From a virus, in the IMG/VR virus record IMGVR_UViG_3300027917_000023: 48,816 bases of DNA; one strand, written 5' to 3'. A program made the position numbers and the translations under genes. Position 1 is the first letter of the stretch; each line of letters opens with the position of its first letter. The notes under the pieces were generated by a model. It worked only from the letters and a program-made list of their open reading frames with translations, made no database searches and was not told the origin of the DNA. This document shows positions 37,792 to 48,816 of the stretch, piece by piece.

Positions 37792-37817
37792 TACCTCCAA
37801 TAGATATTATCAAAGCT

Positions 37818-37893
37818 GGGGCAGTGGTGTAGTGGCTAACACACTGGCCTGTCAAGCCAGAGATCGCGGGTTCAAGTCCCGTCTGTCCCGCCA
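37818..37893 (+). tRNA. tRNA-Asp (anticodon GTC)
   Basis: Acceptor ggggcag/ctgtccc. Anticodon arm ctggc-ctgtcaa-gccag. T arm gcggg-ttcaagt-cccgt. 3' GCCA. Confidence 0.85.
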
Positions 37894-38346
37894 GGCCCAG
37901 AGATTTGGGTTCAAATCCCATGACCAGCAGGATGAGTAAGCCTGTTGTGATAGCTTAATCTGGTAAAGTGCTGGGCGTGATTACGAAGCCAGAAAATACT
38001 GGCACAATATAGAGAGAAACCGGAAGCGGGGGTTCGAATCCCTCCCATCGCAGGATGAATAAACCTGTTCGGGTGGCCTAGTCATGAGTTGGCTTGCAGA
38101 ATGAATAACTCTGCTTGGGGCTATACCTGGTGGTAGTTTAGCGGCAGAACGCCGGTTCGAAAATGAAGCCAGAGGCGCGGGTTCGATTCCCGCCTCCCCC
38201 CTCATCTAGAGGGCTAGGATGAGTAAGCCTACGCAGCGGGGAGTAGCTCAGTGGTAGAGCACTGGCTAAAAGAAAAGCCAGAGATAACCCCTGGGCAAGC
38301 AGTGGGATGAGTAAGCCCACTCAGGTAGGATTAACTCTGGCATTAA
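37894..38346 (+). repeat. Array of degenerate tRNA-like units (5' and 3' half-like pieces related to tRNA-Asp/Arg) separated by a conserved 13-nt motif GGATGAGTAAGCC (4 copies)
   Basis: Motif at 37930-37942, 38053-38065 (ggatgaataaacc), 38217-38229 and 38305-38317. Each is preceded by variable/T-arm/acceptor-3'-like sequence and followed by acceptor-5'/D-arm-like sequence (e.g. 38231-38262 cggggag-ta-gctc-agtggta-gagc-a-ctggc). No unit folds into a complete cloverleaf. Confidence 0.5.
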
Positions 38347-38421
38347 TCCGGCGTGGCCTAACGGAAAGGCGGCGAGCTGTTAACTCGTAAGATGGTGGTT
38401 CAACTCCACCCGCCGGAGCCA
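38347..38421 (+). tRNA. tRNA-Asn (anticodon GTT)
   Basis: Acceptor tccggcg/cgccgga (U1-A72). D arm gcct-aacggaa-aggc. Anticodon arm gcgag-ctgttaa-ctcgt. T arm ggtgg-ttcaact-ccacc. 3' GCCA. Confidence 0.75.
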
Positions 38422-38439
38422 ACCAGCGTGGTCCTCTAC

Positions 38440-38545
38440 AAGAATTTCAGACGTTCTCTTTGGGAGGTTGCAGGTTCGAGTCCTGTCCCCCGGATCATCC
38501 GGGGGTAGCTCAATTTGGTAGAGCGCTAGTCATTTTATTCTTGTT
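38440..38545 (+). other. tRNA 3'-half (T arm + acceptor 3' strand) joined through a 3-nt loop to a tRNA 5'-half (acceptor 5' strand + D arm): candidate circularly permuted tRNA or decayed tandem duplicate
   Basis: gcagg-ttcgagt-cctgt then cccccgga (38487-94), tca, tccggggg (38498-505), then ta-gctc-aatttggta-gagc-g-ctagt. The 8-bp acceptor complement forms a hairpin across the junction. Confidence 0.4.
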
Positions 38546-38646
38546 CAATGACCCGCATTTTTAATAATTTTTCATCGGGCTCCGCGCCGGACTTAGTCTC
38601 CATAAGTATTTTAATCATAGAATTACGTTAAGGACAAAAGAGGTGT

Positions 38647-38877
38647 ATGATGGTCAGGATCGGTGCCGTTGCGGGAACCGCTGCAGTAGCAGTAACATAC
38701 CTCATAATCTTCTTCATCATGTCTAACCTAGAGCGAAAGCATGGGCAGACACCTAACTCTGATTACATGGCAGGTGTATTGGGTGTGCTTCTGGCGTGTG
38801 GGGTTCTATTGATAGATCTAATCTTCTTCATCGTATGGATCGTGAGCAATTTTGGGGCGGTAGCTCAGCCTGGTTAG
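38647..38877 (+). CDS. Small two-TM membrane protein (paralog B of 35135..35350)
   Basis: 76-aa ORF MMVRIGAVAGTAAVAVTYLIIFFIM...LIFFIVWIV, with SD aaaagaggtg. Confidence 0.5.
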   Translation: MMVRIGAVAGTAAVAVTYLIIFFIMSNLERKHGQTPNSDYMAGVLGVLLACGVLLIDLIFFIVWIVSNFGAVAQPG

Positions 38878-38884
38878 AGCATAT
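38855..38884 (+). pseudogene. tRNA 5' fragment (acceptor + D arm, ggggcgg-ta-gctc-agcctggtta-gagc) with no downstream anticodon or T arm
   Basis: Canonical 5' third of a tRNA, overlapping the end of ORF 38647 and the RBS of ORF 38907. Confidence 0.35.
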
Positions 38885-38906
38885 GGTAAAACATTGGAGA
38901 TAACAA

Positions 38907-39119
38907 ATGAATATCATCCTACCATTCGAATCATTTCCTTTACTATACGAATCACGAACCAGGACCCTCAAAAATGGTCAGAAATACAGGATCATTATGT
39001 ATCGCAATGGACGCCAGAGAATAATCGGGTTCTACGTAAAAGATTATAATGATGGTTGGTGTGTCTCACATTCAATTGGCGTTACTAAAAACGACCTAAA
39101 ACGAATGTTAGAATGTTAA
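38907..39119 (+). CDS. Hypothetical protein (70 aa)
   Basis: ORF with SD ggagata. Confidence 0.45.
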   Translation: MNIILPFESFPLLYESRTRTLKNGQKYRIIMYRNGRQRIIGFYVKDYNDGWCVSHSIGVTKNDLKRMLEC

Positions 39120-39193
39120 TTGCCCCGTCGTCTAATGGTAGGACGCCAGGTTCTGGCCCTGGCAGTGAGGGTTCGAAACCTTCCGGGGCAACC
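39120..39193 (+). tRNA. tRNA-Gln (anticodon CTG)
   Basis: Acceptor tgccccg/cggggca (U1-A72). Anticodon arm ccagg-ttctggc-cctgg. T arm gaggg-ttcgaaa-ccttc. 3' ACCA. Confidence 0.8.
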
Positions 39194-39265
39194 AAATGGA
39201 TGTTGATTGCTTATAAATATGGCCTTGATTTTTTCCACTTTACTTCATATATCAGAGGGACAATT

Positions 39266-39619
39266 ATGGATAGAGAACCATGCAAACTAGTGGTAGCGTG
39301 GTTGCAAGAAAAAGGAGTACAAGCTTTTTTGTCCCCAAGTGGCTTGGCAATTCATAAAAACGGCAAACCAGTAGTGATGTTCATTATTGACTTAGATCTG
39401 AATTTAATCGTCGTATCGTCGCATAAAAAATTTATCAATCTATCAAGAAACTACGACTTAAATAATCCAGATAGTTTGCCAAATTTATACGACAGATTGG
39501 TAAGCCTGGGCTATCACAATTACAAGCCAACAGAACGCGACTATCACTATTGCTATGATAAAAACTTTGAAATTAGGTTAAACGGCAACGCAGAGCAAGA
39601 CGAATGTGGATACAAATAG
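39266..39619 (+). CDS. Small paralog-family protein (117 aa; C-terminal ...LNNPDSLPNLYDRLVSLGY...)
   Basis: ATG with SD agaggg. The ORF-track start 39113 overlaps tRNA-Gln and is rejected. Family motifs present. Confidence 0.55.
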   Translation: MDREPCKLVVAWLQEKGVQAFLSPSGLAIHKNGKPVVMFIIDLDLNLIVVSSHKKFINLSRNYDLNNPDSLPNLYDRLVSLGYHNYKPTERDYHYCYDKNFEIRLNGNAEQDECGYK

Positions 39620-40852: not shown

Positions 40853-40926
40853 TGCCCCGTAGTGTAATGGAAGCACGAGCGGCTTTGACCCGCTTAGCGA
40901 AAGTTCGAACCTTTCCGGGGCAACCA
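40853..40926 (+). tRNA. tRNA-Gln (anticodon TTG)
   Basis: Acceptor tgccccg/cggggca. Anticodon arm agcgg-ctttgac-ccgct. T arm gaaag-ttcgaac-ctttc. 3' ACCA. Confidence 0.8.
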
Positions 40927-41115
40927 GATCACCCGAGCCACCGCTGGAAACAGAGGAAGGTCAGGACACCACTGCTTAAGGTGGGAGGGAATTTTCCCGC
41001 TTACCACCAAGGGTGCAATCTCAAGCAGGCTGAGAGTGTGAGCAGCTCTACGAAAGCCGGGTAGAGAGCAAAGATTAATGGTGGCATAGAACAGAATCCT
41101 GCCTACTGGGTGATC
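40927..41115 (+). ncRNA. Structured non-coding element (~190 nt) closed by an 8-bp helix
   Basis: gatcaccc (40927-34) pairs with gggtgatc (41108-15). Internal helices ggtgg/ccacc and gctctac/gtagagc. Contains ggaaggtcagg. Starts at the base after tRNA-Gln. Confidence 0.3.
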
Positions 41116-41175
41116 TTTGATATTAAAGTATTTTATTACTCGTTTATATGATTCACATCAAAACCTGATAACTAT

Positions 41176-41326
41176 GGGGAAGTAGCTCAACAGGATAGAG
41201 TTAGTATGGCGGACCTACATCTTGTAGTCCTATCTATCGGCTAGTGCAGATAGGCAACGCCAGATGGACGGACCGTCAGAATACCCCGTATGGGTGACGT
41301 GGGTTCGAGTCCCACCTTCTCCACCA
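41176..41326 (+). tRNA. tRNA-like element (151 nt) with canonical acceptor stem (G3:U70), D arm, T arm and ACCA end, plus a ~75-nt internal insertion in place of or within the anticodon region
   Basis: 5' ggggaag-ta-gctc-aacaggata-gagt. 3' gtggg-ttcgagt-cccac-cttctcc-a-cca. The 7-bp acceptor includes G3:U70. The insertion forms hairpins ggacctac/gtagtcc and cctatct/agatagg. A possible class-II-like variable hairpin ccc-gtat-ggg is present. Confidence 0.35.
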
Positions 41327-45926: not shown

Positions 45927-46200
45927 AATCTTGGAGAAGTCGCTTATATACCACGGCTTTGTCGTCGTATGGAGTGACAACAGCCTCGGGCCCTATATAA
46001 TTTATAAGCAACAATCATCCCTTATTGGTGGGAAAATAGTTGATTCTTTCCCGCATGGCACGGTGCACATAATTATTGATAATTTAGTGTTAAATAGATT
46101 CCCATCCAACCACACAGTGCCAGCAAAAATACCACTTGCCGATCCGGATTGCTTCAATAAAGCAGTTGAATTTATAGTATTTGACAGGTTGCGATTGTAG
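45871..46200 (+). CDS. Small paralog-family protein (109 aa; ...PLADPDCFNKAVEFIVFDRLRL)
   Basis: ORF. Its last codons and stop (ttg cga ttg tag) form the 5' acceptor of tRNA-Gly(CCC). Confidence 0.5.
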   Translation: MNKGQVAIKNASLKAEICEILEKSLIYHGFVVVWSDNSLGPYIIYKQQSSLIGGKIVDSFPHGTVHIIIDNLVLNRFPSNHTVPAKIPLADPDCFNKAVEFIVFDRLRL

Positions 46201-46261
46201 TTCAATGGTAGAACATGAGCTTCCCACGCTCAAGACGGCGGTTCGATTCCGCTCAGTCGCT
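46191..46261 (+). tRNA. tRNA-Gly (anticodon CCC)
   Basis: Acceptor gcgattg/cagtcgc. D arm gttc-aatggta-gaac. Anticodon arm tgagc-ttcccac-gctca. T arm ggcgg-ttcgatt-ccgct. No encoded CCA. Confidence 0.75.
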
Positions 46262-46264
46262 TCA

Positions 46265-46339
46265 GGTGGCTGTAGCTCAGTGGTAGAGCGTCGGGTTGTG
46301 GCCCCGAAGACGGCGGTTCGATTCCGCTCAGTCGCCCCA
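46265..46339 (+). tRNA. tRNA-His (anticodon GTG) with encoded G-1 and C73
   Basis: g-gtggctg/cagtcgc. D arm gctc-agtggta-gagc. Anticodon arm tcggg-ttgtggc-cccga. 3' half (agacggcggttcgattccgctcagtcgc) identical to tRNA-Gly(CCC). 3' CCCA. Confidence 0.85.
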
Positions 46340-47571: not shown

Positions 47572-47794
47572 AATCATGGTCGAAGCAGCGTTGAATATCC
47601 GAGATTTACTCGAAGTATGCTTGCCAGAAAATTTTGAATGCGGCCAAATCCACAGCCGCACGGGTCGCTGCGGATACGTTAAATTCATGGTGATACCAGA
47701 CGTAAATTTCGGCGGTGGATATATGGTTGTAATAAAAGATGGCGTCATAAACGTGTATTTCGGGGAGAGGCATGCATTACCAACAGCAGCATGA
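47546..47794 (+). CDS. Small hypothetical protein (82 aa), possibly a divergent family member
   Basis: ORF overlapping the previous gene by 26 nt. Confidence 0.4.
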   Translation: MKPNSLEHKIMVEAALNIRDLLEVCLPENFECGQIHSRTGRCGYVKFMVIPDVNFGGGYMVVIKDGVINVYFGERHALPTAA

Positions 47795-48071
47795 ACCCGT
47801 AAAAAATCAACATGTGCGCCAACCAACGGAAAAAGGATTCTTTCAAAATTCGGTGTTGCAGCAAGACATCCAACAGGAAGGCGTTTAGAAGCGGGAGTAT
47901 CCTCGGGCTGAAAATTACTTGAATAATGCCCTGGGCGGCGGACACCACTCGTTGAGACGTTTTGATGTTTTTCCCTAAGATACCGATATTCTTTGTGAAC
48001 CAGGTTGAAATCTTGTAGATTAAGCCAAGGAGGAAAACAGTGAGAGCGGTAAAGAAGAGGAAATCGAACAT
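47745..48071 (-). CDS. Hydrophobic small protein (108 aa, putative membrane protein)
   Basis: ORF with several hydrophobic segments. Weak, distant SD. The alternative longer ORF 47533..48138 looks like antisense noise. Confidence 0.3.
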   Translation of the reverse strand: MFDFLFFTALTVFLLGLIYKISTWFTKNIGILGKNIKTSQRVVSAAQGIIQVIFSPRILPLLNAFLLDVLLQHRILKESFFRWLAHMLIFYGFMLLLVMHASPRNTRL

Positions 48072-48205
48072 TATTTGGCGACACCATCCTTAAGTTATTC
48101 AAACACAAGCGCATTGAAATCTTAGGAATGTCAGGCAACCGAGTTAATTTTCACACAGTAACCAATTCGTGGCCAAGGATCAAATTAGAATCTTCAGTGG
48201 CGTCC

Positions 48206-48679
48206 TTATCGATCGGACTGAGATGCCTTATTAGCCCAATCTTTTTCAATTTCTTTTTTCCATTTCGGGCTACGTTTACGTTTTTCCGCTTTTTGGATCA
48301 CTTCCGGAATCATCTGAAGCAACCGTTGCTTATCAACCGGTTTATCTAAAAAAGCGTCCGGGCTGAAATAATCATGGTCCGGCCATTGGCGGTAATTGAT
48401 GTTTAACTCCTCTCCTATGGCGGAAACGCCAATGATAGGAATATCCTTAAGATCATCATTGGATCGTACTTGCTTGCAAACCTCAAAACCAGAGAACAGC
48501 GTCTCCATCATGATATCGAGCATGATCAAGTCGGGACGCTCTTTTCGGATTAATTCCAATCCTTTTTGACCTTCATCGGCCGTCAATACCTCAAAGCCAT
48601 TTCTTTTTAGAAATGTTTCCATCGTAAAAAGGAAATCGGTATTGTCATCGACTATTACGATTTTGAGGCTCTTTTTCAT
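48206..48679 (-). CDS. Response-regulator receiver (CheY-like REC) domain protein
   Basis: 157-aa ORF 'KIVIVDDNTDF...PDLIMLDIMM...IPIIGVSA...' carries the acidic pocket (DD), phospho-acceptor Asp (LIMLD) and the conserved Thr/Ser and Lys positions of REC domains. Lies in GC-richer sequence. Confidence 0.65.
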   Translation of the reverse strand: MKKSLKIVIVDDNTDFLFTMETFLKRNGFEVLTADEGQKGLELIRKERPDLIMLDIMMETLFSGFEVCKQVRSNDDLKDIPIIGVSAIGEELNINYRQWPDHDYFSPDAFLDKPVDKQRLLQMIPEVIQKAEKRKRSPKWKKEIEKDWANKASQSDR

Positions 48680-48816
48680 GATATTCTCCTCTTGGCATCA
48701 TGTTAAAATAGTGATGAGGTCACGGCCTTTGGTCCAGATAGATCCATACCCTAGTTGGACGCTATGATATTATCATTCAGAACATTTCGTCAAGTTAAAA
48801 GATAAATTGAGATTCG

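What the first reader, a model, noticed from the sequence alone, without database searches (positions are those of the whole stretch)
38440..38545. tRNA 3'-half and 5'-half arranged tail-to-head with the acceptor strands forming an 8-bp hairpin (cccccgga-tca-tccggggg)
A canonical T arm (gcagg-ttcgagt-cctgt) plus acceptor 3' strand is followed after only 3 nt by the exactly complementary acceptor 5' strand and a canonical D arm. The D arm is followed by ctagt and a T-rich stretch, with no matching T arm downstream. This is the architecture of circularly permuted tRNA genes (3' half upstream of 5' half, as in Cyanidioschyzon merolae). Alternatively it is two decayed tandem copies of one tRNA. 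A permuted tRNA in a phage would be new.
Basis: partly seen in the sequence, partly recalled or inferred. Interest (0 to 1): 0.6.

Follow-up and report, generated by a model that had tools for sequence, protein, structure and literature searches.

The report
Phage Y RNA-like tRNA mimic (YrlA-type)
The "tail-to-head tRNA halves" are real, but they are not a permuted or decayed tRNA: they are the core of a conserved ~130-nt YrlA-type Y RNA, a known tRNA-shaped non-coding RNA, sitting in a jumbo phage's tRNA array with no Ro/Rsr partner gene nearby.

Summary
At 38470-38524 a T arm, an 8-bp closed acceptor hairpin and a D arm follow one another, and no tRNA is called there.

The element is larger than reported, 38426-38556. 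A V hairpin precedes the T arm, and the two ends pair in three stacked helices (P2, P1, P0). This is the YrlA (bacterial Y RNA) architecture, which the literature already describes as resembling circularly permuted tRNAs with closed acceptor stems.

Evidence for this reading:
- Rfam YrlA matches it full length, at 44.5 bits. That is below the gathering score of 69, but Rsr-adjacent phage controls score only 34-45.5.
- A covariance model trained only on Rsr-linked elements scores it 73 bits.
- The tertiary 15:48 pair covaries in 12 of 12 elements.
- The orthologue in a related phage keeps all 37 pairs, with 5 compensatory changes, while the flanks are scrambled.

No anticodon arm can be assembled, so a decoding permuted tRNA is rejected. 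Decay is rejected too.

Two features are unusual. No TROVE/Rsr gene lies in the 62 kb examined, whereas 55 of 80 phage Rsr loci have their best model hit within 1 kb upstream. The usual Rsr-recognition motifs are also absent or displaced.

Verdict: a new member of a known kind, of modest interest.

The parts
38426..38556 (+). Whole YrlA-type element (~131 nt): closing stem plus tRNA-like four-way junction
   Evidence: Rfam RF02553 hit at 38437-38548, full model. Model R1 hit at 38438-38536, 73.0 bits. MFE folds. RNAalifold consensus with L133.
38426..38433 (+). P0 5' strand, GCG-U-GGUC (bulged U). Pairs with 38550-38556. Candidate protein-binding helix.
   Evidence: Paired in the MFE of the window and of L133. 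The sequence is invariant between the two orthologues while the neighbouring P1 covaries. Near-match (GCGUGG) to the phage motif G[CU]G-N-AG.
38438..38445 (+). P1 5' strand, ACAAGAAU. Pairs with 38537-38544.
   Evidence: 8 bp. Three compensatory double changes against L133 (UGAGGAAU/AUUCCUUA).
38450..38452 (+). P2 5' strand, GAC (anticodon-stem analogue). Pairs with GUC at 38529-38531.
   Evidence: Invariant in L133.
38455..38467 (+). V hairpin, UCUCU-UUG-GGAGG (variable-arm analogue), followed by UU (U48).
   Evidence: L133 keeps the stem (UCUCU/AGAGA) with a longer loop. The V helix covaries in the family.
38470..38486 (+). T arm, GCAGG-UUCGAGU-CCUGU.
   Evidence: The T stem covaries across the family, 100% paired.
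38487..38505 (+). Closed acceptor stem-loop (AS), CCCCCGGA-UCA-UCCGGGGG.
   Evidence: Two compensatory changes against L133. All 8 AS pairs covary in the family.
38506..38525 (+). U8-A9, then D arm GCUC-AAUUUGGUA-GAGC, then G26.
   Evidence: Identical to the RF02553 consensus D arm. A15 pairs with U48 (Levitt pair), which covaries in 12 of 12 elements.
38529..38531 (+). P2 3' strand, GUC.
38537..38544 (+). P1 3' strand, AUUCUUGU.
38550..38556 (+). P0 3' strand, GACC-CGC, followed by a U-rich tract (AUUUUUAAUAAUUUUU).
   Evidence: The U tract is not conserved in L133.
38347..38421 (+). tRNA-Asn(GUU) ending in CCA, 4 nt upstream of P0. Same neighbour in the orthologous locus.
   Evidence: ARAGORN and Rfam. 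In L133, tRNA-Asn is directly followed by the orthologous element.
38168..38266 (+). Possible second, weaker module. GCCAG-AGGC; T arm GCGGG-UUCGAUU-CCCGC; 6-bp acceptor CUCCCC/GGGGAG with a 38-nt loop; UA; D arm GCUC-AGUGGUA-GAGC; A-CUGGC.
   Evidence: RF02553 partial hit, 33.5 bits. R1 gives 50.1 bits, within the range of tandem-tRNA junctions. By reading the sequence, position 15 is G and position 48 is C. It does not fold cleanly alone and is not conserved in L133.

Best explanation
Positions 38426-38556 encode a YrlA-type Y RNA, a non-coding RNA of about 130 nt.

Structure. The centre folds into a tRNA-like L made of a V hairpin, a T arm, an acceptor stem closed by a loop, and a D arm. 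The 5' and 3' ends pair into a three-part stem (P2, P1, P0) that takes the place of the anticodon arm.

Shown here:
- the fold;
- its conservation with compensatory changes in a related phage;
- its membership, by sequence and structure, in the RNA family that lies just upstream of Ro60/Rsr (TROVE) genes in many phages and bacteria.

Inferred:
- It lies on the same strand as the phage tRNA array, 4 nt after tRNA-Asn, so it is probably co-transcribed with the tRNAs and released by tRNA-processing nucleases.
- Its 7-8-bp acceptor stem has the length of the M. smegmatis YrlA acceptor (7 bp), which RNase P opens and which then receives CCA. The loop may therefore be cut to give a two-piece tRNA-like RNA.
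- It then acts as a tRNA-shaped adaptor or decoy. The invariant bulged terminal helix P0 (GCG-N-GGUC/GACC-CGC) would bind a protein, most plausibly an Rsr encoded elsewhere in the 262-kb genome or by the host. The tRNA-like domain would engage a tRNA-recognising factor.

My probabilities: about 0.85 that this is a functional YrlA-class RNA; about 0.4 that its partner is an Rsr protein.
For: Rfam: RF02553 (YrlA) aligns over the full model at 44.5 bits. The T arm, AS, UA and D arm are nearly identical to the consensus. Bona fide Rsr-adjacent phage elements score the same or lower: L002 45.5, L156 42.1, L142 36.8, L158 34.6, L001 34.2.

Independent model: R1 was built from nine Rsr-linked elements, with the window and L133 excluded. 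It scores the window 73.0 bits and L133 76.2 bits, ranks 16 and 10 of 188. That is above every tandem-tRNA junction seen (63.5 bits or less).

Family structure: 98% of cells are paired, against 27-50% in slid controls. 14 of 22 pairs show double changes, and 0 of 500 shuffles reach the observed values.

Tertiary fold: the Levitt pair 15:48 covaries in 12 of 12 elements (A:U in 8, G:C in 4). The window has A:U.

Orthologue: L133, from a related phage (neck protein 81% identical), has the same position after tRNA-Asn.
- 37 pairs: 30 unchanged, 2 one-sided changes, 5 compensatory, 0 broken.
- 79% identity within the element against about 47% downstream.
- RNAalifold independently predicts the same helices.

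Context: the closest structural relative, L142, shares GAGCGCUAGUCA. It lies in a tRNA array 1.07 kb upstream of a TROVE+VWA gene.

Literature:
- YrlA has a closed AS, lacks an anticodon loop, and resembles permuted tRNAs (10.1101/312249).
- YrlAs are reported in 22 phages.
- The 7-bp AS of M. smegmatis YrlA is cleaved by RNase P, after which CCA is added (PMC4201824).
Against: No TROVE/Rsr gene in reach:
- None was found in the 62 kb of the phage contig I could examine, 47.7 kb on one side of the element and 14.5 kb on the other. This used Pfam on the large ORFs and a phage-Rsr HMM on all ORFs.
- None was found in the orthologous loci L133 and L138.
- By contrast, in 55 of 80 phage Rsr loci the best R1 hit ends within 1 kb upstream of Rsr.

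Recognition motifs:
- The strict GNCGAA(N)G motif is absent.
- The phage-type motif G[CU]G-N1-2-AG, normally 10 nt before the V arm (31 of 48 Rsr-linked elements), is present only as a one-base variant. It is also displaced by the extra P1 helix.

Other limits:
- The Rfam gathering score is not reached.
- Only one diverged orthologue exists, so the covariation in P1, P0 and P2 rests on two sequences.
- There is no expression data.
Confidence: 0.8

Rival explanations
1. Rsr-independent tRNA-like element. The RNA descends from, or converges on, the YrlA fold but no longer works with Ro/Rsr. In the phage tRNA operon it could serve as an RNase P/RNase Z-recognised punctuation or 3'-end-forming signal. 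Alternatively it could be a decoy that titrates tRNA-binding host factors such as modification enzymes, the CCA-adding enzyme, or acceptor-targeting toxins.
For: - No Rsr gene in 62 kb, nor in the orthologous loci.
- The Rsr-recognition motifs are missing or displaced.
- The element sits at the end of a tRNA sub-cluster, immediately after tRNA-Asn and before protein-coding genes, in both phages.
- The acceptor stem has tRNA-like length, 7-8 bp.
- The phage carries its own RNase P-like RNA 2.4 kb downstream.
- tRNA-like RNase P substrates that form 3' ends are known, for example MALAT1/mascRNA as cited in 10.1101/312249.
Against: - About 200 kb of the genome could not be examined, and the host is unknown, so an Rsr partner is not excluded.
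- P0 is sequence-invariant between the orthologues while P1 covaries. This suggests a specific protein-binding site, as in Y RNAs.
- The U tract after the element is not conserved in L133, which argues against a terminator role.
- A mere processing signal would not need the V hairpin or the long closing stem.
Confidence: 0.3
2. Circularly permuted tRNA gene. The transcript is circularised or its ends are joined to make an anticodon loop. The acceptor loop is then opened, yielding a decoding tRNA.
For: - The 3'-half then 5'-half order, with the acceptor strands joined by 3 nt.
- The acceptor stem has tRNA length.
- The YrlA literature itself notes the resemblance, and raises the possibility that some YrlAs are processed further (10.1101/312249).
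Against: - No 3' anticodon-stem strand complementary to CUAGU exists upstream.
- Only 3 bp (GAC/GUC) sit at that position. They are followed by an internal loop and an 8-bp plus 7-bp closing stem, so no 7-nt anticodon loop can form.
- CCA is not encoded in the loop, although 13 of the 18 tRNAs in the window encode CCA.
- The splicing endonuclease that C. merolae uses has not been reported in bacteria (10.1101/312249).
- Homologous elements sit next to Rsr genes rather than filling gaps in tRNA sets.
Confidence: 0.03
3. Two decayed tandem copies of one tRNA: a non-functional remnant in which the outer halves were lost.
For: - Tandem paralogous tRNAs automatically give complementary acceptor strands. 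The window has a live example: tRNA-Gly(CCC) and tRNA-His at 46191-46339 share a 29-nt 3' stretch, and their junction scores 47 bits with R1.
- Degenerate tRNA-like pieces lie just upstream, at 37944-38260.
- This may well be how the YrlA fold originated.
Against: - The orthologue keeps every helix, with 5 compensatory changes and none broken, while the flanks have diverged to about 47% identity.
- The flanks form a conserved closing stem that decay would not create.
- No parent tRNA is present in the window.
- R1 scores the element above all tandem junctions.
Confidence: 0.04

Closest known systems
YrlA RNAs (Rfam RF02553): bacterial and phage Y RNA-like tRNA mimics, e.g. S. Typhimurium YrlA (crystal structure 6CU1), M. 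smegmatis YrlA, mycobacteriophage ET08 YrlA
   Same: - Same 5'-to-3' order: closing-stem strand, V, T arm, closed acceptor stem-loop, UA, D arm, closing-stem strand.
- The D arm is identical to the family consensus.
- The tRNA tertiary positions are kept, including the covarying 15:48 pair.
- The acceptor has tRNA-like length, as in M. smegmatis YrlA.
- It occurs in a large tRNA-rich myovirus.
(PMC4201824; 10.1101/312249)
   Different: - It is not within 4 kb of an Rsr gene: none in 62 kb.
- It lacks GNCGAA(N)G and the phage-type G[CU]GNAG motif at its usual spacing.
- It has an extra 8-bp helix (P1) between the terminal helix and the tRNA-like core.
- It lies directly behind a tRNA gene inside a tRNA operon.
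- It scores below the Rfam gathering score, as do the other phage YrlAs tested here.
Rsr-linked phage YrlA in L142 (JGI contig Ga0075029_100000003, 114 kb, tRNA-rich phage)
   Same: - Closest relative outside the lineage.
- Shares GGUAGAGCGCUAGUCA after the D loop, A15:U48, and an 8-bp closed acceptor.
- Has an AAGAAU-containing closing-stem 5' strand.
- Also lies inside a tRNA array.

   Different: - L142 has a TROVE+VWA gene 1.07 kb downstream and a second tandem module (70.5 bits). The window lineage has neither.
- The acceptor and T-stem sequences differ.
Circularly permuted tRNA genes of Cyanidioschyzon merolae (Soma et al. 2007, as cited in 10.1101/312249)
   Same: The 3' half lies upstream of the 5' half. 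The acceptor is initially closed by a loop. The transcript ends pair with each other.
   Different: Those precursors rebuild a full anticodon arm after circularisation by the eukaryotic/archaeal splicing machinery, and become decoding tRNAs. Here no anticodon arm can be assembled, and that machinery is not known in bacteria.
Dimeric/tandem tRNA genes (the known false positive for YrlA searches; Chen et al. 2014)
   Same: A T arm followed closely by a D arm. When the two tRNAs are paralogues, the junction is even self-complementary, as at window 46191-46339.
   Different: Both tRNA bodies are complete in true tandems. Here neither the upstream D/anticodon arms nor the downstream anticodon/T arms exist, and the flanks pair with each other instead.
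tRNA-like RNase P substrates such as mascRNA at the MALAT1 3' end, and the tRNA-like domain of tmRNA
   Same: tRNA-shaped modules recognised by tRNA enzymes without decoding. A tmRNA-like RNA lies 2.7 kb downstream in the same array.
   Different: Those have free acceptor ends (with CCA in tmRNA) and a different topology. The Rfam tmRNA and permuted-tmRNA models do not hit this element.

Membership tests
YrlA / bacterial Y RNA (RF02553) | tRNA-like domain in the order V region, T arm, closed acceptor stem-loop, D arm | tested here: met
   Read directly from the sequence. CM alignment. MFE. RNAalifold.
YrlA / bacterial Y RNA (RF02553) | Conserved tRNA tertiary-contact nucleotides, including a covarying Levitt pair 15:48 | tested here: met
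   U8, A14, G18G19, and UUCGA in the T loop are present. 15:48 is A:U here, and it covaries in 12 of 12 collected elements.
YrlA / bacterial Y RNA (RF02553) | 5' and 3' ends pair into a long stem in place of the anticodon arm | tested here: met
   P2 (3 bp), P1 (8 bp) and P0 (7 bp plus a bulge). P1 has 3 compensatory changes against L133.
YrlA / bacterial Y RNA (RF02553) | Reaches the Rfam gathering score (69 bits) | tested here: not met
   44.5 bits. However, six phage/metagenome elements scanned with the same model also fail, at 34.1-45.5 bits, and five of those are Rsr-adjacent. The threshold is therefore not discriminating for phage members.
YrlA / bacterial Y RNA (RF02553) | Recognised by a model trained only on Rsr-linked elements | tested here: met
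   R1 gives 73.0 bits (E about 1e-17), rank 16 of 188, above all tandem-tRNA junctions (63.5 bits or less).
YrlA / bacterial Y RNA (RF02553) | GNCGAA(N0-1)G motif near the 5' end (proposed Rsr contact) | tested here: not met
   None within about 1 kb. But only 3 of 52 Rsr-linked phage elements have it. The phage-type G[CU]G-N1-2-AG motif, found 10 nt before the V arm in 31 of 48, is present only as GCGUGG and is displaced.
YrlA / bacterial Y RNA (RF02553) | Encoded within about 4 kb of an Rsr/TROVE gene, on the same strand | tested here: not met
   No TROVE in contig positions 54.2-116.6 kb (Pfam; phage-Rsr HMM), nor in L133/L138. The remaining ~200 kb of the contig could not be read.
YrlA / bacterial Y RNA (RF02553) | Bound by Rsr; modified by TruB/DusA | not testable with these tools
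   Needs immunoprecipitation and modification mapping.
Circularly permuted tRNA gene | 3' half upstream of 5' half, with the acceptor strands joined by a short linker | tested here: met
Circularly permuted tRNA gene | The termini reconstitute a 5-bp anticodon stem and a 7-nt anticodon loop | tested here: not met
   No partner for CUAGU upstream. Only GAC/GUC pairs there, and it then leads into the closing stem.
Circularly permuted tRNA gene | Bulge-helix-bulge junction processed by a splicing endonuclease, via a circular intermediate | not testable with these tools
   Such enzymes are not reported in bacteria, according to 10.1101/312249. Testing needs RNA-seq junction reads.
Tandem (dimeric) tRNA genes | A complete tRNA body on each side of the junction | tested here: not met
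   ARAGORN and the Rfam tRNA model call nothing in 38422-38600. The internal positive control at 46191-46339 is called as two tRNAs.
tmRNA / permuted tmRNA | Match to the tmRNA tRNA-like domain, a CCA end, and a tag reading frame | tested here: not met
   No tmRNA or tmRNA_permuted hit overlaps 38426-38556.

The most novel reading that the evidence does not exclude
This lineage carries an Rsr-independent YrlA-type RNA that has become part of the phage's own tRNA-processing circuit. It would be transcribed with the tRNAs. Its 7-8-bp acceptor loop would be opened by RNase P, possibly by the phage's own specificity-domain-less RNase P RNA encoded 2.4 kb downstream. It would then receive CCA. The product would be a two-piece, anticodon-less tRNA-like RNA acting as a decoy or adaptor for a tRNA-binding factor other than Ro.
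Probability: 0.2. Interest if true: 0.6.

Novelty: new member of a known kind. Interest (0 to 1): 0.3.

Why it matters
The result turns an apparent oddity, a "permuted tRNA in a phage", into a recognisable member of the Y RNA world.

It also shows that annotation pipelines miss these genes or mislabel them. The element scores below the Rfam threshold. ARAGORN calls false tRNA-His and tRNA-Val genes over the YrlAs of L001 and L002.

The window lineage is a natural test case for a long-standing open question: what does the tRNA-like domain of Y RNAs do? Here the domain is fully conserved, while the usual Rsr gene neighbour and the Rsr motifs are missing.

Finally, the survey shows that YrlA-Rsr pairs are common in phages. 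At least 552 TROVE loci were confirmed in IMG/VR, and most of the 80 examined have a YrlA-like RNA just upstream. That is far more than the 22 phages reported in 2014.

Tried and rejected
- **blastn against deposited phages:** 37800-39300 returned only ordinary tRNA matches and nothing for the element.
- **14-mer probe:** the inter-tRNA hairpin loop (AGGATGAGTAAGCC) used as a lineage probe gave 120+ single chance hits. This was a wasted scan.
- **PcfJ-like neighbour as an anchor:** no relatives in IMG/VR. Its homologues on long contigs sit in bacterial chromosomes.
- **Identical-protein look-ups:** these found only the same phage in another sample, 100% identical and so uninformative.
- **My first Rsr test was too insensitive.** tblastn with two actinophage Rsr N-termini missed the TROVE genes in L142, L149, L156, L158 and L162. 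I corrected this with Pfam and a purpose-built HMM.
- **Two attempts to find an Rsr elsewhere in this phage were inconclusive.** None of the top 120 of 1,229 TROVE homologues lies on a 261,688-bp contig. None of the 80 listed IMG/VR TROVE loci is on a contig of this lineage.
- **Walking further along the contig** was not possible, because look-ups are restricted to proteins encoded in the window.
- **Specific DNA patterns** picked up ordinary tandem tRNAs, which I filtered out by acceptor self-complementarity: L136, L140/141, L143-148, L150-155, L159-161, L163-165, L169 and L173.
- **MAFFT split the base of the acceptor stem** across two columns, so I counted pairs with explicit coordinates instead.
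- **Promoter and terminator scans** showed no + strand signal flanking the element.
- **Pfam and PHROGs on the small ORFs** of the cluster found no RNA-related partner.

Full report
**1. What is there**

The window is mostly a stretch of a 261,688-bp metagenomic contig from a jumbo myovirus (ENA ERZ27279932 k141_869270). The contig encodes a tail sheath, baseplate proteins and a class II ribonucleotide reductase, and has no close relative among deposited phages. From 36.9 kb onward the + strand carries a tRNA array. There are 18 tRNAs in the window, and more beyond it.

- T arm GCAGG-UUCGAGU-CCUGU (38470-38486);
- an 8-bp hairpin CCCCCGGA-UCA-UCCGGGGG (38487-38505);
- UA, then the D arm GCUC-AAUUUGGUA-GAGC (38508-38524);
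- then G-CUAGUC and a U-rich stretch.

ARAGORN and the Rfam tRNA model call nothing here.

**2. What it resembles**

A permissive Rfam scan matches 38437-38548 end to end to RF02553, YrlA, the bacterial 'Y RNA-like' tRNA mimic. The score is 44.5 bits, with E of about 1e-7 to 1e-8. The T arm, closed acceptor, UA and D arm agree with the consensus almost base for base.

Folding the region alone gives the YrlA plan. A V hairpin, T arm, acceptor stem-loop and D arm sit on a closing stem built from both flanks: GAC/GUC, ACAAGAAU/AUUCUUGU, and GCG-U-GGUC/GACC-CGC.

The literature describes YrlA in just these terms. It has a tRNA-like L-shaped fold, the acceptor stem is a closed loop, and the anticodon loop is missing. 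[quoted passage not shown] Chen et al. reported YrlAs near Rsr in 254 bacteria and 22 phages. They warned that dimeric tRNAs are the main false positive (PMC4201824).

**3. Is it a real, selected RNA?**

Using the neck-protein gene as an anchor, I found a related phage in IMG/VR and JGI (L133 = L137 = L138; gp13-like protein 81% identical). It has the same gene order: Gly, Trp, Asp, Asn, then an orthologous element directly after tRNA-Asn.

Between the two orthologues, 37 base pairs give 30 unchanged, 2 one-sided changes, 5 compensatory double changes and none broken. Three of the double changes are in the 8-bp closing helix P1, and two are at the base of the acceptor stem. The element is 79% identical while the next 100 nt are about 47% identical. 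RNAalifold on the pair predicts the same helices on its own.

None of the 18 tRNAs in the window resembles either half beyond a generic D arm. This rules out decaying duplicates.

**4. Is it a member of the YrlA family?**

DNA-pattern scans of viral, metagenome and genome collections returned two kinds of hit. Some were ordinary tandem tRNAs. Others had a self-complementary 7-8-bp acceptor and no downstream tRNA body.

Pfam and a purpose-built profile showed a TROVE (often TROVE+VWA) Rsr gene next to the second kind in L001, L002, L142, L149, L156, L158, L162 (weak), L171 and L172 (weak). These Rsr-linked controls score only 34-45.5 bits with RF02553, so the window's failure to reach the gathering score of 69 is uninformative.

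I then built a covariance model (R1) from nine Rsr-linked elements only. Its structure is strongly supported:
- 98% of cells are paired, against 27-50% when partners are slid;
- 14 of 22 pairs show double changes;
- 0 of 500 shuffles reach the observed values.

I searched 80 phage Rsr loci fetched with the Rsr alignment, plus the window:
- In 55 of the 80 loci, the best hit ends 0-1000 nt upstream of Rsr on the same strand.
- The window element scores 73.0 bits and L133 scores 76.2 bits, ranks 16 and 10 of 188.
- Tandem-tRNA junctions score at most 63.5 bits.

The tertiary Levitt pair 15:48 covaries without exception in 12 elements (A:U in eight, G:C in four), and the window has A15:U48. By sequence, secondary structure and tertiary signature, the tRNA-like domain is a YrlA domain.

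**5. What is not typical**

No TROVE gene occurs in the 62 kb of the contig that I could read (record positions 54.2-116.6 kb). That is 47.7 kb on one side of the element and 14.5 kb on the other. The orthologous loci have none either. About 200 kb of the genome and the unknown host remain unexamined. Two indirect attempts to find an Rsr of this phage were inconclusive.

The strict GNCGAA(N)G motif is absent. That matters little, because only 3 of 52 Rsr-linked phage elements have it. Most phage members instead carry G[CU]G-N1-2-AG almost exactly 10 nt before the V arm (31 of 48). The window and L133 have only one-base variants, GCGUGG and GCGAGG. These lie further out, because an extra helix (P1) is inserted between them and the core.

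The outermost helix P0, GCG-N-GGUC/GACC-CGC with a single bulged base, is sequence-invariant between the two phages although the neighbouring P1 has changed three times. I read this as a protein-binding site. That is an inference. It recalls the bulged Ro-binding helix and the GGUCCGA contact mentioned by Chen et al., but the resemblance amounts to only a few bases.

**6. The permuted-tRNA reading**

None exists in 38422-38469, even allowing G-U pairs. The three 4-of-5 matches lie inside or overlap other helices. The anticodon-stem position holds only 3 bp, which lead into an open stem, so no anticodon loop can be made. The loop does not encode CCA, although 13 of the 18 tRNAs in the window do. 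So the topology is permuted-tRNA-like, but the product cannot be a decoding tRNA.

**7. Most likely mechanism**

Shown: a conserved structured RNA with a YrlA-type tRNA-like domain, on the tRNA strand, 4 nt after tRNA-Asn in two phages.

Inferred:
- It is co-transcribed with the tRNAs and released by tRNA-processing nucleases.
- Its acceptor has tRNA-like length (7-8 bp). M. smegmatis YrlA has a 7-bp acceptor that RNase P cleaves and that then receives CCA (PMC4201824). The loop here may be opened in the same way, leaving two base-paired pieces.
- The terminal helix recruits a protein, most plausibly an Rsr encoded elsewhere or by the host (about 0.4). The tRNA-like domain engages a tRNA-recognising factor.
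- The main rival is that the RNA works without Rsr, as a processing signal or decoy (about 0.3).

**8. Second module**

At 38168-38266 there is a T arm, a 6-bp acceptor with a 38-nt structured loop, a D arm, and flanking GCCAG/CUGGC strands, with G at position 15 and C at position 48. It scores 33.5 bits with RF02553 and 50.1 bits with R1, which is within the tandem-tRNA range. It does not fold cleanly on its own and is absent from L133. Tandem YrlA-like modules are common next to phage Rsr genes, for example two in L142 and several in L244 and L253. It may therefore be a degenerate second copy, but I do not count it as established.

**9. Verdict**

The element is a new, somewhat atypical member of a known RNA family, of modest interest. 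The atypical features are the orphan position and the divergent terminal module, and these are the only part that might prove new.

Noticed in passing
window 40925-41121 (+); also L254, L255/L256, L257, L258, L259, L260, L262, L264, L267: A ~197-nt RNA directly after tRNA-Gln aligns to bacterial RNase P RNA (RF00010, 66.5 bits, E about 1e-19). P1-P4, CR-I (GAGGAAGGUCAGG) and CR-IV/V (AGAUUAAUGG ... ACAGAAUCCUGCCUAC) are intact, but nearly the whole specificity domain is missing. About ten IMG/VR phage contigs carry full-length homologues with covarying P1 and P3. Most come from tRNA-rich loci, with up to 34 ARAGORN tRNA calls in 12 kb. The huge-phage paper in the library (PMC7162821) mentions tmRNA but never RNase P RNA. 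This may be more novel than the assigned finding.
   Followed up: partly
window 41176-41326 (+): A 151-nt tmRNA-like RNA (RF00023, 31.7 bits, E about 1e-10). It has both halves of the tRNA-like domain (GGGGAAG ... ACGUGGGUUCGAGUCCCACCUUCUCCACCA) with only 111 nt between them, against about 326 in the consensus. ARAGORN does not call it.
   Followed up: no
window 37930-37942, 38053-38065, 38217-38229, 38305-38317 (and a variant near 38098): A repeated hairpin with a conserved 9-nt loop (AUGAGUAAG or AUGAAUAAN) and covarying 4-6-bp stems. It lies between the tRNA-like pieces from tRNA-Asp to tRNA-Asn, and one copy sits inside the acceptor loop of the second module. Function unknown. It could be a processing or protein-binding signal.
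   Followed up: no
window 37944-38052 and 38133-38194 (+): Weak tRNA-model hits (30.2 and 29 bits) that ARAGORN does not call. One has an insertion of about 35 nt, and the other lacks an acceptor stem. They suggest degenerate or unconventional tRNA-like elements upstream of tRNA-Asn.
   Followed up: no
window 46191-46339 (+): tRNA-Gly(CCC) and tRNA-His are adjacent, 4 nt apart, and share an identical 29-nt 3' stretch (AAGACGGCGGUUCGAUUCCGCUCAGUCGC). Their junction therefore forms a self-complementary pseudo-acceptor hairpin and scores 47 bits with the YrlA-type model. This is a live example of how a T-acceptor-D module could arise from tandem paralogues, and of the known false positive.
   Followed up: partly
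window 47768-48816: The window is a composite. Bases 1-47789 are collinear with the 261.7-kb phage contig. Bases 47768-48816 match a separate 1.2-kb contig (k141_7246857) that encodes a response-regulator receiver protein, with a 22-nt overlap. On the true phage contig the sequence instead continues with a methyltransferase gene and further tRNA genes (L003).
   Followed up: yes
L001 710-782 (-), L002 3465-3540 (+): ARAGORN calls a 'tRNA-His' and a 'tRNA-Val' that overlap bona fide Rsr-adjacent YrlA elements. YrlA modules can therefore be mis-annotated as tRNAs in phage genomes.
   Followed up: partly
In 55 of the 80 examined, the best YrlA-model hit lies within 1 kb upstream. Many have two to five tandem modules (e.g. 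L244, L253). A conserved 5' motif, G[CU]G-N-AG, lies 10 nt before GUUACUUC in most. It differs from the published GNCGAA(N)G.
   Followed up: partly
L168 11601-13634 and 15241-17526 (upstream of the window on the phage contig): Two large ORFs just outside the window carry intein-splicing domains. One also has a LAGLIDADG domain and the other a weak PT-HINT match. So the phage has intein-containing genes next to its helicase.
   Followed up: no
L133 1660-1720 (-): Between tRNA-Asp and tRNA-Asn, the related phage has a lone T-arm-plus-acceptor-3'-strand piece ending in CCA (GAGAG-UUCGAAU-CUCUU-CGGUCCCGCCA). It is preceded by the same AAAUGCGAG(A/G)UCU leader that precedes its YrlA-like element. 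This suggests a repeated unit in the array.
   Followed up: no
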